A stretch of DNA of 64,000 nucleotides from the NCBI GenBank assembly GCA_040876925.1, contig JBBDOS010000003.1:61207-125206 (forward strand). Reading direction: 5' to 3'. Positions 39,001 to 42,000 of the stretch are shown here, in pieces (the first letter of the stretch is position 1; each line of letters starts with the position of its first letter). The stretch is from Candidatus Saccharimonadales bacterium (GTDB lineage Bacteria > Patescibacteriota > Saccharimonadia > QS-5-54-17). The position numbers are program-made.

Positions 39001-42000
39001 AGAAATTACTCTTCTTAAGACTCATCAGATTTTATAGAATCTTTAACGGATTCTTTGGTGGACTCTAACTCTTCTTTTGTACCCTTCATCTCAGCAGAAG
39101 CGGCATCTTTACCAGCGTAAATAGCTTTCTTGACTTTATCTGTAACGCGAGCAGAGGTTTGTCTTAATTCCTTGCCAGCAACTTCTGCTTTGCGCCTAGC
39201 ACTTATTGTCTGATCTTTTACGTCTCTTTCGGTTTCCTCAGCTCTAGATTTAAGTTCTGATCTAGTTTCTGAACCTTTTTTCGGAGCAAACAATACTCCA
39301 GCTACGGCACCTAAAATTGCACCTAATGCAAACTTGCTGCCTTTTTGGTCTTTCGGTTGATTATTGCTATCACTCATTTTTTGACTCCTTTTCTTGTTGT
39401 TCTTGGTTATTTGTGTTATCTTCTTCAGCCTCATCTTGGCTTTTGTGGCCTTGATAGACCTTTCTAGCAGTAGCAAACATAGCCGAAACAATAGCTGCTA
39501 TATCTATGTTTTTAGCCATACTTTGAGCTACTTTAGAACCTAGAGAGCTAGTTAGGCTATCTATCCTATCAGTAATACTATTTACTCGGTGCACTACTTT
39601 TAAGATTCTAGCTACTAAATAGATACTAAGTACGAGGTAGATGGCGAGAAATATGCTTAAGATTATGACTAATATTTCTAATGCTTCCATAGTCTATATA
39701 TTACAGGAGTAGTAGATTAGGGGCAAGGATATATATTGAACGTTATAAGAACTACCTAAGTAGCTCCGAACTAAGTAGAGTGATTTGGGTTGTTTTTAGT
39801 TCTTATAAACAAAGTTCTATTGGTATAAATAATTTGAATCAATCCATACGTCAAGTTAGAGCTGCCTGTTGCTAAGTTAGTAAATAGTTACTATAAAATA
39901 TATTGACTTATATTGCAATATTATATACACTAATATATGTAGATGGAATGCGTGGATGAGCCTAGTTGCTCCTTGAATCCAAAGCGCCATCTATTTCCTT
40001 TTCACAGCGAAATATACCCCGTTTTTTAGTCTCAATTCCATATCTTGTGACAGATTATAAACATTTATCTTAGCCTGTACGTATTTTACCAATTGCGCCT
40101 TCGCCCCTTTAGTAGAAGCAAGTCCGTACTTCATCTTGAAAGCATATGCCACCGCTCCTATTAGGATATCTGCCAGCTGGATTTCTGACACGGCATGCGA
40201 TTCTAATCTAGCTATACCATACAAGGCATTGCGCCTGTGAGCTTTTTTGACCATATCGCGCACCTCACGCTCAAATTTATCGTCTTTGTCATTAGTCGAC
40301 ACGTCATCTGCCAACACGGTGATATATTCGCTAGCCTGCTGCTTGGTTGCATCGACTATCTTTGCTATGACCTGACCAGCGTATTTATTGTATGATTTGT
40401 ATTTGTTCGGATGATTTTTACCTTTCTTGTCTACAATTTGCACCACAAAACGCAAATTTTTCTCTGCAAAAGTTAAGTCTATAAGTTCTTTGTAAATTGG
40501 CAGAGTGGAGTGGTTAATAGCGCTAAATTTAAACTCGCGATAAAAACGCCGCTTGTTCCTTAGCCTGATTATCGATCTATGCAGATGGCGCGGACTAGGC
40601 AGAGCGATCAAGCCTATGCCAAAAAATCTATCTGTTTCTGGAGTATGCAATAAACCCGTTTCATCTAAGTAACCAAACAAATGTAGTCTGGGTTTTATCA
40701 CTCTAGTGTCACTCTTTTTCATGCAATCATTGTAACATTTTTTGCACAATAGTTGTATAAAATACCGTTATTTACTATATGGCTTTAACTTAAGTTTCGA
40801 TGAATTCTACCTTTTTTGCTTAGAGCCATTAACGATACCTCTACCTGTATAGCGTTCTATTTGTTTGTTGTCTTTTTCTAATCCGATAAGCCACTAAGGC
40901 TGAGCTGAATAATTAATCTAGTTCTTCTACTTTTTATTTCAGCTTACTTTTTAGCATTTCTTGTACCATCTGTGGATTAGCCTGGCCCTTACTCTCCTTC
41001 ATCACCTGACCGACTAAAAAGCCGATGGCTTTAGCTTCGCCGGATTCAACATCCTTCACGGCCTGTGGGTTAGCAGCTATGACTTGATCTACTATTGTCC
41101 CTAGTTGATTAGTATCAGACATCTGGATTAACCCTTTATCTTTAGCTATATCTTCAGGAGGTGTATCGGTAGTAATCATGGCGGATAGAACTATCTTGGC
41201 ATTGGTAGAGCTAAGATCTCCCACCTCTACCATCTGAGCTAGGGCAACTAATCTATCGCTATCTAGTTGGAACTTATCCCAATTGAAACCCTCTTCACCG
41301 ACAATTCTTAGCACCTCACCTGATAGCCAGTTAGCAACTGGCTTGGCATATTGAGAGTTGGTAGCTATAACGTCTTGTTGCAGATCAGCTAGTTTGGGCT
41401 GATTTAAAATGGCTGTGATAATAGTCTGACTTAAATCTGCTTCCTTAAGCTTAGCCCTGATATCTCCCACCATTATTGGAGAGTTCTTAGCTATAGCTTG
41501 CTTCATCTGCTCAGCGATCTGTAGCGGTGGTAGGTCTGGTTCTTTAAAGTATCTATAGTCCATAGCTTCTTCCTTGCTGCGCTGAGAAATAGTTTTACCA
41601 GTGCTATCATCATACCCCCTGGTTTCTTGGACTATCTTTTCGCCTTTTTCTAGTAGCTCAATTTGCCTGTTTATCTCATACTCCGCAGCTTTCTCTACGC
41701 TACGGAAAGAGTTTAAGTTCTTAGTCTCACTACGTGTACCTAGAGTTTTAGAGTCTTTCTTTCTAACGCTAACGTTAACATCAAAGCGCATATTGCCGTG
41801 ATACAAATCTACATCACTAACGCCGGCATATAGCATACGCATGTATAGCTCCTGGGTATAAGCCTTAGCCTCTGCTGGAGAGTGGATATCGGGCTCAGAG
41901 ACTATCTCTAGTAGCGGCGTACCAGCTCTATTTAGATCTACTAAGGAATAATCTACTCCTTCAGGATGAGTTAACTTACCAGCATCCTCTTCTAGGTGAG

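What the first reader, a model, noticed from the sequence alone, without database searches (positions are those of the whole stretch)
39991..40749. Orphan DUF3800-like gene with Zn-ribbon N-terminus inserted between stress-protein genes and gatB
FGYLDETG and QLADILIGA match the two hallmark DUF3800 motifs (N-terminal DESG, C-terminal QxAD). This family is repeatedly found in defense islands and abortive-infection contexts and is predicted to be RNase H-like. The gene sits alone between ~290-bp and ~180-bp AT-rich spacers. It may be leaderless: TGTTACAAT overlaps the annotated first codons, placing a transcription start near Met10. Single-gene defense candidates in reduced genomes are poorly described.
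Basis: partly seen in the sequence, partly recalled or inferred. Interest (0 to 1): 0.65.

Follow-up and report, generated by a model that had tools for sequence, protein, structure and literature searches.

The report
DUF3800 nuclease gene with partner sRNA
The flagged gene is a real RNase H-like DUF3800 gene in a Saccharibacteria genome, but it is not alone: a previously undescribed, highly conserved ~60-nt structured small-RNA gene is transcribed towards its 3' end, and the two travel together as a compact 0.9-kb RNA-protein module of unknown, possibly toxin-antitoxin-like or defensive, function.

Summary
The ORF at 39991-40749 (-) is a real DUF3800 gene: Pfam 28.8 bits against a cut-off of 21, DE and QxxD motifs present, AlphaFold model with an RNase HII-like fold. 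The "Zn-ribbon" N-terminus is an artefact of extending the ORF to an upstream TTG. Homologues start at Met10, giving 243 aa. The leaderless idea holds: TGnTACAAT-N6-ATG is conserved in nearly all homologous loci.

Synteny agrees with an insertion. None of 39 Saccharibacteria gatB loci carries the gene.

The gene is not an orphan. The 300-bp "spacer" downstream holds a convergent mini-gene on the + strand:
- promoter TTGACT-17-TACACT at 39903-39931
- a 50-nt irregular hairpin at 39942-39991
- a U-tract overlapping the stop codon

The element follows every one of 9 protein-anchored homologues and a distant relative. It shows 100% pairing, and 8 of 13 pairs carry compensatory changes. Its DNA is more conserved than the coding sequence. 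It has no Rfam match.

DUF3800 genes are already known to associate with 11 unrelated RNA motifs of unknown function, so this is a new one.

Best reading: a nuclease plus its cognate RNA ligand, probably inhibitory and antitoxin-like. A defence role is plausible but unproven.

The parts
39991..40722 (-). DUF3800 coding sequence: 243 aa from Met10 of the listed ORF, stop TAG at 39991-39993. The mechanical ORF extends to a TTG at 40749.
   Evidence: Pfam PF12686 at 28.8 bits against a cut-off of 21. Nearly all aligned homologues of 240-249 aa start at this Met. Invariant residues, in 243-aa numbering, are D20 E21 (DETG), K99, D139 D140 (ADDVS), E174 S175 H176, E180, Q182 and D185. The AF2 model has pLDDT 89.7 and an RNase HII-like fold.
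40723..40737 (-). Extended -10 promoter TGTTACAAT (40729-40737) followed by GATTGC and then the ATG, which implies a leaderless mRNA. It overlaps palindromic box 2, ACAATGATTGC (40723-40733).
   Evidence: [TG]nTACAAT-WATTGY-ATG is conserved in almost all homologous loci. There is no Shine-Dalgarno sequence (sequence). The transcription start itself is inferred.
40746..40756 (-). Upstream copy of the palindromic box (ACAACTATTGT), 23 bp upstream of box 2. It is a candidate operator.
   Evidence: A second ACAATWATTGY box about 20-25 bp upstream of the first is seen in most homologous loci. The operator role is inferred.
39903..39931 (+). Sigma-70 promoter of the small RNA: -35 TTGACT, 17-nt spacer, -10 TACACT. 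It points towards the 3' end of the DUF3800 gene.
   Evidence: Found by the promoter scan. The same TTGACN-17/18-TAnnnT, ending 6-13 nt before the conserved hairpin, is present in 18 of 19 distinct loci, against a shuffle mean of 0.02.
39938..40002 (+). Predicted ~65-nt small RNA: start near 39938, hairpin 39942-39991 (helices P1, P1b, P2 and P3 with invariant internal loops), U-rich tail 39992-40002. The tail is antisense to the stop codon and last codons of DUF3800.
   Evidence: Covariance model R1 scores 84 bits (E 1e-20) here, and this is the only hit in the window. All 286 cells are paired and 8 of 13 pairs have compensatory changes. RNAalifold predicts 16 pairs, 9 of them with compensatory changes. 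MFE is -21 kcal/mol, z -3.4. There is no Rfam match at E<=10. The 5' and 3' ends are inferred.
39797..39807 (+). One copy of an 11-nt direct repeat, TAGTTCTT[A/C]TA. The other copy is at 40919-40929, just after the gatB stop. Together they bracket the module and may mark the insertion, but they may also be chance.
   Evidence: the repeat finder pairs I2 and I3. This was not tested further, and short AT-rich repeats are often chance matches.

Best explanation
The locus is a compact two-gene RNA-protein module of about 0.9 kb (window ~39890-40767). It has been inserted at a variable spot between gatB and the ytxH-type small-protein genes of a Saccharimonadales genome.

The first gene encodes a 243-aa DUF3800 protein with an RNase HII-like fold and an intact acidic motif set. 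It is expressed as a leaderless mRNA from an extended -10 promoter, which is flanked and overlapped by two palindromic ACAAT-N-ATTGY boxes.

The second gene lies on the opposite strand, with its 3' end overlapping the DUF3800 stop codon. It has its own near-consensus sigma-70 promoter and encodes a ~60-65-nt irregular hairpin RNA that ends in a U-tract.

Inferred mechanism: the RNA is the dedicated ligand of the DUF3800 nuclease. Its invariant internal loops are the protein-contact surface and its covarying stems are the scaffold. The strongly and constitutively made RNA most likely keeps the nuclease in check, acting like an antitoxin in type III toxin-antitoxin logic. An extra antisense effect on the converging mRNA 3' end is possible. 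On that reading, loss of the RNA, for example on transcription shut-off during phage attack or loss of the module, would free the nuclease.

Shown here: the gene, the fold, the RNA structure with covariation, the promoter and terminator geometry, and the tight co-occurrence of gene and RNA. Inferred: binding, inhibition, and any defence role.
For: Gene and fold.

RNA element:
- It sits directly 3' of the stop codon in all 9 independent protein-anchored homologous loci, which are 48-75% identical in protein sequence.
- A recognisable copy is present in one more distant relative, where helix P1 covaries as GACAG/CUGUC.
- Of 14 element-anchored metagenome hits, 13 have a DUF3800 gene immediately upstream on the same strand as the pattern.
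- The covariance model hits once per locus at 70-86 bits. It gives no hit in 726 kb of Saccharibacteria DNA that lacks the gene.
- All cells are paired. 8 of 13 pairs have compensatory changes, and slid controls give only 32-50% pairing. RNAalifold independently finds 16 pairs.

Strand assignment:
- A sigma-70 promoter is present in 18 of 19 loci, against 0.02 in shuffles.
- A T-run follows the hairpin in all loci.
- The one G-U pair would be an A-C mismatch on the other strand.

Conservation and coding potential:
- The unpaired loop nucleotides are invariant, and the RNA core is 80-94% identical at the DNA level. The coding sequence is only 63-72% identical. Pure antisense action would not require this.
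- The element is not a small ORF. The reading frame is broken by stops and 1-nt indels in other loci (sequences).

Precedent: DUF3800 genes are known to associate with 11 unrelated structured RNA motifs, on either strand and either side, several of them terminator-ended (PMC5737381).

Defence-type contexts for some homologues: type IIG R-M, MTases, GmrSD, RadC and RhuM. PADLOC PDC-M04A scores 1.2e-26.
Against: - There is no expression, binding or toxicity data. Transcription of the RNA is inferred from motifs only.
- Half of the RNA sequences were found with a pattern that fixed P1 and parts of the loops, so invariance there is partly by ascertainment. The 9 protein-anchored loci do show the same invariance.
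- The module does not meet the definitions of type III or type I TA systems. There are no RNA repeats, the RNA is downstream and convergent, and the protein is not a small membrane peptide.
- In five lineages the gene sits in a stable housekeeping neighbourhood and diverges like housekeeping genes: 52-62% identity, against ProS 58-70% and RecO 43-48%. This is unusual for arms-race defence genes.
- In this window all neighbours are housekeeping genes.
- No relatives were found on IMG/VR viral contigs.
- The RNA could equally be an activating cofactor rather than an inhibitor.
Confidence: 0.45

Rival explanations
1. RNP cofactor model. The small RNA is a positive cofactor, scaffold or specificity element of the DUF3800 nuclease, or possibly its substrate. 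The pair is a long-resident cellular or surveillance RNP, not a toxin-antitoxin pair.
For: - The same co-occurrence, covariation and invariant-loop evidence applies.
- The protein diverges at a housekeeping-like rate, and the recO-proS...rnhA position is conserved in five lineages.
- DUF3800 domains accompany RNA-centred systems: retron type VII, Cas12a2/a3 and Cas13-CASK (PMC7736814, PMC10910872, PMC13594972, 10.64898/2026.08.25.746378).
Against: - The RNA has no variable guide-like segment. Only 3-4 nt precede the hairpin.
- The strong-promoter RNA against a regulated, leaderless protein gene fits an inhibitor that is kept in excess.
- The module moves between loci and sits inside R-M loci in some genomes.
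Confidence: 0.27
2. Pure cis-antisense control (type I-like). The convergent RNA acts only by base-pairing with the 3' end of the DUF3800 mRNA, or by transcriptional interference, to limit expression.
For: The transcripts converge. The RNA's tail overlaps the last codons, and no terminator for the mRNA precedes the element.
Against: - Antisense complementarity is automatic for any sequence. It does not explain the invariant internal loops, the covarying stems, or DNA conservation higher than in the coding sequence.
- In L092 the RNA gene lies 218 nt beyond the stop codon yet is fully conserved.
Confidence: 0.13
3. This is an orphan single-gene DUF3800 defence gene, and the conserved downstream element is merely a terminator, an insulator or cassette-end sequence.
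For: - The DUF3800 and PADLOC hits.
- The insertion at a non-conserved position.
Against: - The hairpin has its own consensus promoter 6-13 nt upstream in 18 of 19 loci.
- Its T-run is on the strand opposite to the gene, so it cannot terminate the DUF3800 mRNA.
- Its sequence is far more conserved than a terminator needs to be.
Confidence: 0.07
4. Housekeeping substitute for RNase HII. The protein removes ribonucleotides or RNA primers in place of rnhB.
For: - The best fold match is RNase HII.
- The gene lies near rnhA in five lineages.
Against: - The same window encodes a canonical rnhB at 22250-22831, and 15 other Saccharibacteria loci have one too.
- Profile-profile comparison of the family with RnhB gives a probability of 2%.
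- The gene is absent from the syntenic position in 39 relatives.
Confidence: 0.03

Closest known systems
Pfam DUF3800 (PF12686), RNase H-like fold proteins
   Same: The HMM hit is above the gathering cut-off. The N-terminal DE and C-terminal QxxD motifs are present. The predicted fold is RNase HII-like, as reported for other DUF3800 proteins (PMC7736814, PMC10910872).
   Different: This is a tight Saccharibacteria-specific subfamily: only about 5 full-length 50%-identity clusters score above 260 bits, then scores drop to 165 or less. It is a stand-alone 243-aa protein with no TPR or RT fusion.
DUF3800-associated RNA motifs DUF3800-I to -XI, plus the drum and skipping-rope motifs (Weinberg et al. 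2017, PMC5737381)
   Same: A structured, conserved non-coding RNA lies next to a DUF3800 gene and ends in a terminator-like U-tract. As with those motifs, it can lie on the strand opposite to the gene, and its function is unknown.
   Different: There is no match to any Rfam 15 family, even at E<=10. The RNA is smaller (~60 nt, a single irregular hairpin). It occupies a fixed convergent position abutting the stop codon and has a defined consensus promoter. It occurs in Saccharibacteria.
PADLOC candidate system PDC-M04 (component A)
   Same: The protein matches the PDC-M04A HMM at 1.2e-26. Some homologues are embedded in R-M loci, which is how PDC candidates were defined (10.1101/2024.01.29.577857).
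   Different: PDC-M04 is a multi-gene candidate and is untested. None of the adjacent proteins scanned matches any PADLOC model. Here the partner is an RNA.
Type III toxin-antitoxin systems (ToxIN, CptIN, TenpIN)
   Same: An RNA gene is tightly linked to a nuclease gene, the RNA is likely made in excess, and the pair forms a mobile two-part module.
   Different: There are no tandem RNA repeats. The RNA is downstream and convergent with its own promoter. The protein has an RNase H-like fold, not a ToxN-type fold.
Type I TA loci with 3'-overlapping convergent antisense RNAs (for example bsrG/SR4 and txpA/RatA; from my own knowledge)
   Same: A convergent small RNA has a 3' end that overlaps the 3' end of the protein gene.
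   Different: The protein is a 243-aa soluble nuclease-like enzyme, not a small hydrophobic peptide. Conservation of the RNA exceeds what antisense pairing needs.
Retron type VII (RT plus a DUF3800 effector)
   Same: A DUF3800 protein is coupled to a dedicated non-coding nucleic acid (PMC7736814).
   Different: No reverse transcriptase is nearby. This subfamily keeps the Q of QxxD, which the retron-linked proteins lack.

Membership tests
Pfam DUF3800 (PF12686) | HMM score above the curated gathering threshold | tested here: met
   28.8 bits against a cut-off of 21, E 2.3e-6, covering profile positions 3-148 of 149.
Pfam DUF3800 (PF12686) | N-terminal DE motif and C-terminal QxxD motif | tested here: met
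   D29-E30 (LDETG) and Q191-L-A-D194 in 252-aa numbering. Both are invariant in 33 and in 71 aligned homologues.
Pfam DUF3800 (PF12686) | RNase H-like fold | tested here: met
   The AF2 model has pLDDT 89.7 and pTM 0.88. The best PDB matches are RNase HII 1EKE (E 1e-4, probability 1.00, TM about 0.5 over 219 columns) and other RNase H entries.
Zinc ribbon (as claimed for the N-terminus) | Two conserved CxxC-type knuckles within the translated protein | tested here: not met
   Only C2, C5 and C9 are present. The segment is absent from all 32 aligned homologues and lies upstream of the conserved leaderless start. No Zn-ribbon Pfam hit was found.
Canonical RNase HII (rnhB) | Sequence-profile similarity to RnhB | tested here: not met
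   There is no Pfam RNase HII hit. hhalign of the family against an RnhB alignment gives probability 2%. A true rnhB lies at window 22250-22831.
PADLOC PDC-M04 candidate defence system | Component A HMM match | tested here: met
   PDLC04353 at E 1.2e-26 and PDLC04354 at 2.2e-10.
PADLOC PDC-M04 candidate defence system | The further protein component(s) of the multi-gene system encoded adjacently | tested here: inconclusive
   The window proteins orf106 and orf137 have no PADLOC hits, and the other neighbours are housekeeping genes. The composition of PDC-M04 could not be looked up.
PADLOC PDC-M04 candidate defence system | Demonstrated anti-phage activity | not testable with these tools
   PDC systems are described as untested candidates (10.1101/2024.01.29.577857).
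Rfam DUF3800-I, DUF3800-IX and any other DUF3800 RNA motifs in Rfam, plus drum and skipping-rope | Covariance-model match to the RNA | tested here: not met
   No Rfam 15 family matches at E<=10 in 39880-40030 or 38500-42500, on either strand. None matches at gathering score in six homologous loci.
Type III toxin-antitoxin | Antitoxin RNA made of tandem repeats upstream of the toxin gene, sharing its promoter | tested here: not met
   No relevant tandem repeats were found. There is a single RNA copy, downstream and convergent, with its own promoter.
Type III toxin-antitoxin | The RNA binds and inhibits the protein toxin | not testable with these tools
   This needs co-expression, toxicity and binding assays.
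Structured non-coding RNA (general) | Helices supported by compensatory changes beyond controls | tested here: met
   All 286 cells are paired. 8 of 13 pairs have changes on both sides. 0 of 500 shuffles reach the observed value, and slid controls give 32-50% pairing. RNAalifold finds 9 of 16 pairs with compensatory changes and none broken.

The most novel reading that the evidence does not exclude
The Saccharibacteria DUF3800 gene and its convergent 60-nt RNA form a new class of RNA-controlled nuclease module. In it, an RNase H-fold toxin or effector is held by a single-hairpin RNA antitoxin that has its own promoter. This module would be the minimal, ancestral-looking form of the unexplained DUF3800-RNA partnership seen across bacteria, retrons and CRISPR loci.
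Probability: 0.3. Interest if true: 0.8.

Novelty: new variant of a known kind. Interest (0 to 1): 0.62.

Why it matters
It has been known since 2017 that DUF3800 genes keep company with at least 11 unrelated structured RNAs. Nobody knows why, and DUF3800 domains also turn up in retron type VII, Cas12a2/a3 and Cas13-CASK loci with no assigned role.

This locus offers an unusually small and cleanly delimited instance:
- a 243-aa protein
- a ~60-nt hairpin RNA with a recognisable promoter and terminator
- invariant loop nucleotides and covarying stems
- no other partner genes

That makes the protein-RNA relationship directly testable by co-expression, binding and nuclease assays.

It also adds a conserved small RNA gene and a possible RNA-based toxin-antitoxin or defence module to Saccharibacteria (CPR). 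Few non-coding RNAs or immune systems have been described in these reduced genomes.

Tried and rejected
- **Zn-ribbon N-terminus:** rejected. It is not conserved and lies upstream of the conserved start.
- **Known Rfam family for the element:** none, at gathering score or at E<=10.
- **Small ORF in the element** (the + strand ATG at 39943 gives a 28-codon frame in the window): rejected. The frame hits stops after 5-11 codons in L081 and L090, and 1-nt indels occur in L095, L098 and L103, while base pairing is kept.
- **Integron attC-like or terminator-only reading:** rejected. The element has its own promoter on the opposite strand and no GTTRRRY ends.
- **RNase HII replacement:** rejected. 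rnhB is present in the window, and hhalign gives probability 2%.
- **Phage origin:** no subfamily relatives were found in IMG/VR. One element copy sits on a contig catalogued as viral, but it has no DUF3800 gene and no promoter.
- **PDB sequence homologues:** none.
- **Comparing DUF3800 divergence with housekeeping genes shared with the window:** no shared genes exist in the fetched loci. I used pairs among other loci instead.
- **PDC-M04 composition:** not found in the literature library.
- **Flanking 11-nt repeats as target-site duplication:** recorded but not testable.
- **Second ACAATTATTGC box at 62691:** not significant, since 2 matches against 0.47 expected occurred in 12 of 100 shuffles.
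Full report
**1. The observation**

The window carries an ORF at 39991-40749 on the - strand, 252 aa from a TTG. It scores 28.8 bits (E 2.3e-6) on Pfam DUF3800 (PF12686), above the gathering cut-off of 21, and covers almost the whole profile. In alignments of 33 and 71 homologues, D-E in LDETG and Q..D in EIQxxD are invariant. The flanking non-coding stretches are 300 bp (39691-39990) and 184 bp (40750-40933). GC content of the gene (0.41-0.43) matches its surroundings.

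The organism is a Saccharimonadales (TM7/Saccharibacteria) bacterium. An identical protein is annotated in an NCBI MAG, and the best gatB relatives are all Saccharibacteria.

**2. What is wrong in the observation**

The "Zn-ribbon N-terminus" (MCKKCYNDC) comes from extending the ORF to the first possible start codon.
- Homologues are 240-249 aa, and nearly all start where Met10 of the ORF aligns. None has the Cys-rich stretch.
- The ATG of Met10 (40722-40720) is preceded by TGTTACAAT-GATTGC. The arrangement [TG]nTACAAT, then 6 nt (WATTGY), then ATG recurs in nearly all homologous loci.
- This is an extended -10 box placed so that transcription would begin at or next to the ATG.
- The -10/+1 region overlaps an 11-bp palindrome, ACAAT-N-ATTGY (40723-40733). 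A second copy lies 23 bp upstream (40746-40756). The two-box arrangement is also conserved and looks like a pair of operators. That role is inferred.

**3. Synteny**

The order uvrB, gatC-gatA-orf137-gatB, small membrane/YtxH/DUF5665 proteins, dnaE is conserved in about 39 Saccharibacteria loci. None of them has a DUF3800 homologue within 10 kb of gatB by tblastn, and none has a hit to the RNA model described below. In the closest relative (gatB 65% identical) a galU-like gene occupies the gatB/orf106 junction. The gene is therefore not conserved at this position, and the junction is a variable spot.

An 11-nt direct repeat, TAGTTCTT[A/C]TA, brackets the module at 39797 and 40919. It could be chance.

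**4. The gene is not alone**

I read the flanks of homologous loci that were fetched through their proteins. Immediately 3' of the stop codon, every locus has the same ~50-nt sequence. Read on the strand opposite to the gene, it is:

GAUGG-AAUGCGU-GGAC-GAGC-CUUGUU-GCUC-CUUGA-GUCC-AAAGCG-CCAUC

On that strand:
- It is preceded by TTGACN, then 17 or 18 nt, then TAnnnT, ending 6-13 nt before the hairpin. This holds in 18 of 19 distinct loci, against a mean of 0.02 of 19 in shuffles.
- It is followed by a T-run in all loci.

In the window:
- The promoter is TTGACT-17-TACACT at 39903-39931. The generic promoter scan also found it.
- The hairpin is at 39942-39991.
- The U-rich tail is at 39992-40002. 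It is antisense to the stop codon and the last codons of DUF3800.

This is a complete convergent mini-gene for a ~60-65-nt RNA.

**5. Is the RNA real?**

- An exact-pattern scan of the metagenome collection, using only the RNA's conserved ends, gave 14 loci. Of these, 13 have a DUF3800 gene directly upstream in the expected orientation, with protein identity down to 39%.
- The exception is an orphan copy on a 79.7-kb contig that is also catalogued in IMG/VR. It lacks both the promoter and the gene.
- Covariance model R1, built from 20 sequences, finds exactly one hit per DUF3800 locus at 70-86 bits. In the window the hit is 39942-40002 on the + strand, 84 bits. It finds nothing in 726 kb of Saccharibacteria DNA without the gene.
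- On 22 distinct sequences all 286 pair cells are canonical and 8 of 13 pairs carry compensatory changes. No shuffle reaches the observed values, and sliding the partners drops pairing to 32-50%.
- RNAalifold independently predicts 16 pairs, 9 with compensatory changes and none broken.
- Caveat: the pattern scan fixed P1 and parts of the loops in about half of the sequences. However, the 9 protein-anchored loci show the same invariance. A more distant relative (P0137, L115) has a recognisable copy in which P1 itself covaries as GACAG/CUGUC.
- The single G-U pair would be an A-C mismatch on the gene strand. Together with the promoter and the T-run, this assigns the RNA to the + strand.
- The internal-loop and hairpin-loop nucleotides are essentially invariant. 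The RNA core is 80-94% identical at the DNA level, where the coding sequence is 63-72% identical.
- A small-ORF reading fails, because stops and 1-nt indels break the frame in other loci.
- No Rfam 15 family matches, even at E<=10 on a 151-nt slice.

**6. The protein**

- AlphaFold2 with a 71-sequence alignment gives a confident model (pLDDT 89.7, pTM 0.88).
- The only significant PDB fold matches are the two chains of RNase HII entry 1EKE (E 1e-4, TM about 0.5 over the whole chain). Other RNase H entries follow with weaker scores. This agrees with earlier modelling of DUF3800 proteins (PMC7736814, PMC10910872).
- It is not a canonical RNase HII. There is no sequence hit in the PDB, hhalign against an RnhB alignment gives probability 2%, and the same window encodes a true rnhB at 22250-22831.
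- The subfamily is tight. In the 1.8-billion-protein representative library there are 971 DUF3800-type hits, but only about 5 full-length 50%-identity clusters score above 260 bits, and scores then drop to 165 or less.

**7. Contexts and the defence question**

- PADLOC's PDC-M04A model matches at 1.2e-26. PDC systems are untested candidates found by guilt-by-embedding (10.1101/2024.01.29.577857), and PDC-M04 is a multi-gene candidate.
- None of the adjacent proteins scanned matches any PADLOC model.
- The closest homologues (72-75% identity) sit between a type IIG R-M enzyme and a type II methyltransferase, next to GmrSD, RadC and RhuM genes. Two further lineages are next to methyltransferases.
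- Five lineages keep the module in a recO-proS...rnhA neighbourhood. There the protein diverges at 52-62% identity, between RecO (43-48%) and ProS (58-70%). So it behaves like a long-resident gene under purifying selection.
- No relatives were found on IMG/VR contigs.
- In this window all neighbours are housekeeping genes.
- A defence role is therefore possible but not established.

**8. Mechanism**

Shown:
- a leaderless-type promoter with two palindromic boxes
- an RNase H-fold protein with its acidic motifs intact
- a convergent, independently promoted, terminator-ended structured RNA that co-occurs with the gene and is more conserved than the gene

Inferred: the RNA is the protein's dedicated ligand. 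Invariant unpaired nucleotides combined with covarying stems are the signature of a specifically recognised RNA. Antisense pairing would not need them, because complementarity to the converging mRNA is automatic. In L092 the RNA gene is fully conserved even though it lies 218 nt beyond the stop codon.

The protein gene has an extended -10 with no evident -35, operator-like boxes and a leaderless start. The RNA gene has a near-consensus promoter. This suggests that the RNA is kept in excess, as in toxin-antitoxin logic.

My best reading is a type III-like module: an RNA antitoxin bound to a nuclease, with a possible added antisense effect, and possibly acting in abortive infection or addiction. 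The main rival is that the RNA is an activating cofactor or scaffold of a resident RNP. The module fails the formal definitions of type III TA (no repeats; different layout) and of type I TA, so this is a "works like" claim, not membership.

**9. Relation to what is known**

Weinberg et al. (PMC5737381) reported that DUF3800 genes associate with 11 mutually unrelated structured RNA motifs. The motifs lie on either strand and either side of the gene, several end in terminators, and their function is unknown. DUF3800 domains also accompany retron type VII, Cas12a2/a3 and Cas13-CASK loci, again without an assigned role (PMC7736814, PMC10910872, PMC13594972, 10.64898/2026.08.25.746378).

The present RNA is a further, previously uncatalogued motif of that kind, found in Saccharibacteria. 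Its architecture is unusually small and well delimited.

**10. Verdict**

The gene call, the family assignment, the leaderless idea and the insertion idea hold. The Zn ribbon and "orphan" do not. The more interesting feature is the conserved partner sRNA.

- Novelty: a new variant of a known kind (DUF3800 plus an associated RNA).
- Interest: moderate to high, because it offers a minimal system for testing what DUF3800-RNA pairs do.

Noticed in passing
window 42400-42813 (-): A 137-aa ORF with no Pfam hit sits between gatA and gatB, overlapping both by 1-4 nt. A homologue occupies the same place in about 35 Saccharibacteria loci but in none of the Firmicutes loci. It appears to be a lineage-specific insertion in the gatCAB operon.
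   Followed up: partly
window 22250-22831 (-): A canonical RNase HII gene (rnhB, 38% identical to E. coli RnhB) is present in the same window. 15 other Saccharibacteria loci also carry one.
   Followed up: yes
L092 5750-5968 (also L093, L094): In one lineage a 218-nt insert separates the DUF3800 stop codon from the sRNA gene. It folds strongly (-78 kcal/mol, z -3.3, with long-range pairing UGUACAUUUUCUCCUC/GGAGGGGGAAAAUGUACA) and is called as a 115-aa ORF. It may be a second structured RNA.
   Followed up: partly
L098 3688-3750 = L100 5726-5788 (79.7-kb contig, also in IMG/VR): An orphan copy of the sRNA element scores 70 bits. It has no recognisable -35/-10 promoter and no DUF3800 gene next to it. 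It may be a relic.
   Followed up: partly
L114 4711-4800, L116 3795-3870, L115 4688-4748: More distant DUF3800 relatives also have a convergent TTGAC-type promoter just beyond the stop codon. L115 keeps a diverged copy of the same hairpin (37 bits). L114 has a different small hairpin, and in L116 the predicted RNA would run into the coding 3' end.
   Followed up: partly
window 39743-39754 / 39797-39808, and 40919-40929: A perfect 12-bp inverted repeat with a 42-nt loop lies between the sRNA promoter and orf106. One arm (TAGTTCTTATA) is repeated directly after the gatB stop, so the two copies bracket the module.
   Followed up: no
L086, L087, L090, L095, L103: A recO - proS - (variable genes) - DUF3800/sRNA - ... 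- rnhA neighbourhood recurs in five Saccharibacteria lineages. KwaB-like genes lie nearby in two of them (L086, L087).
   Followed up: partly
window 39015-39491 and 39370-39690 (-): The listed YtxH ORF starts at a far-upstream TTG and overlaps the 106-aa membrane-protein ORF by about 120 nt. The real YtxH start is probably the internal Met (MSDSNNQ...), as in L001.
   Followed up: no
L086 8082-8185 (+): A SAM riboswitch (65 bits) lies upstream of metK, about 1.4 kb downstream of the DUF3800 module. This is an ordinary feature.
   Followed up: no
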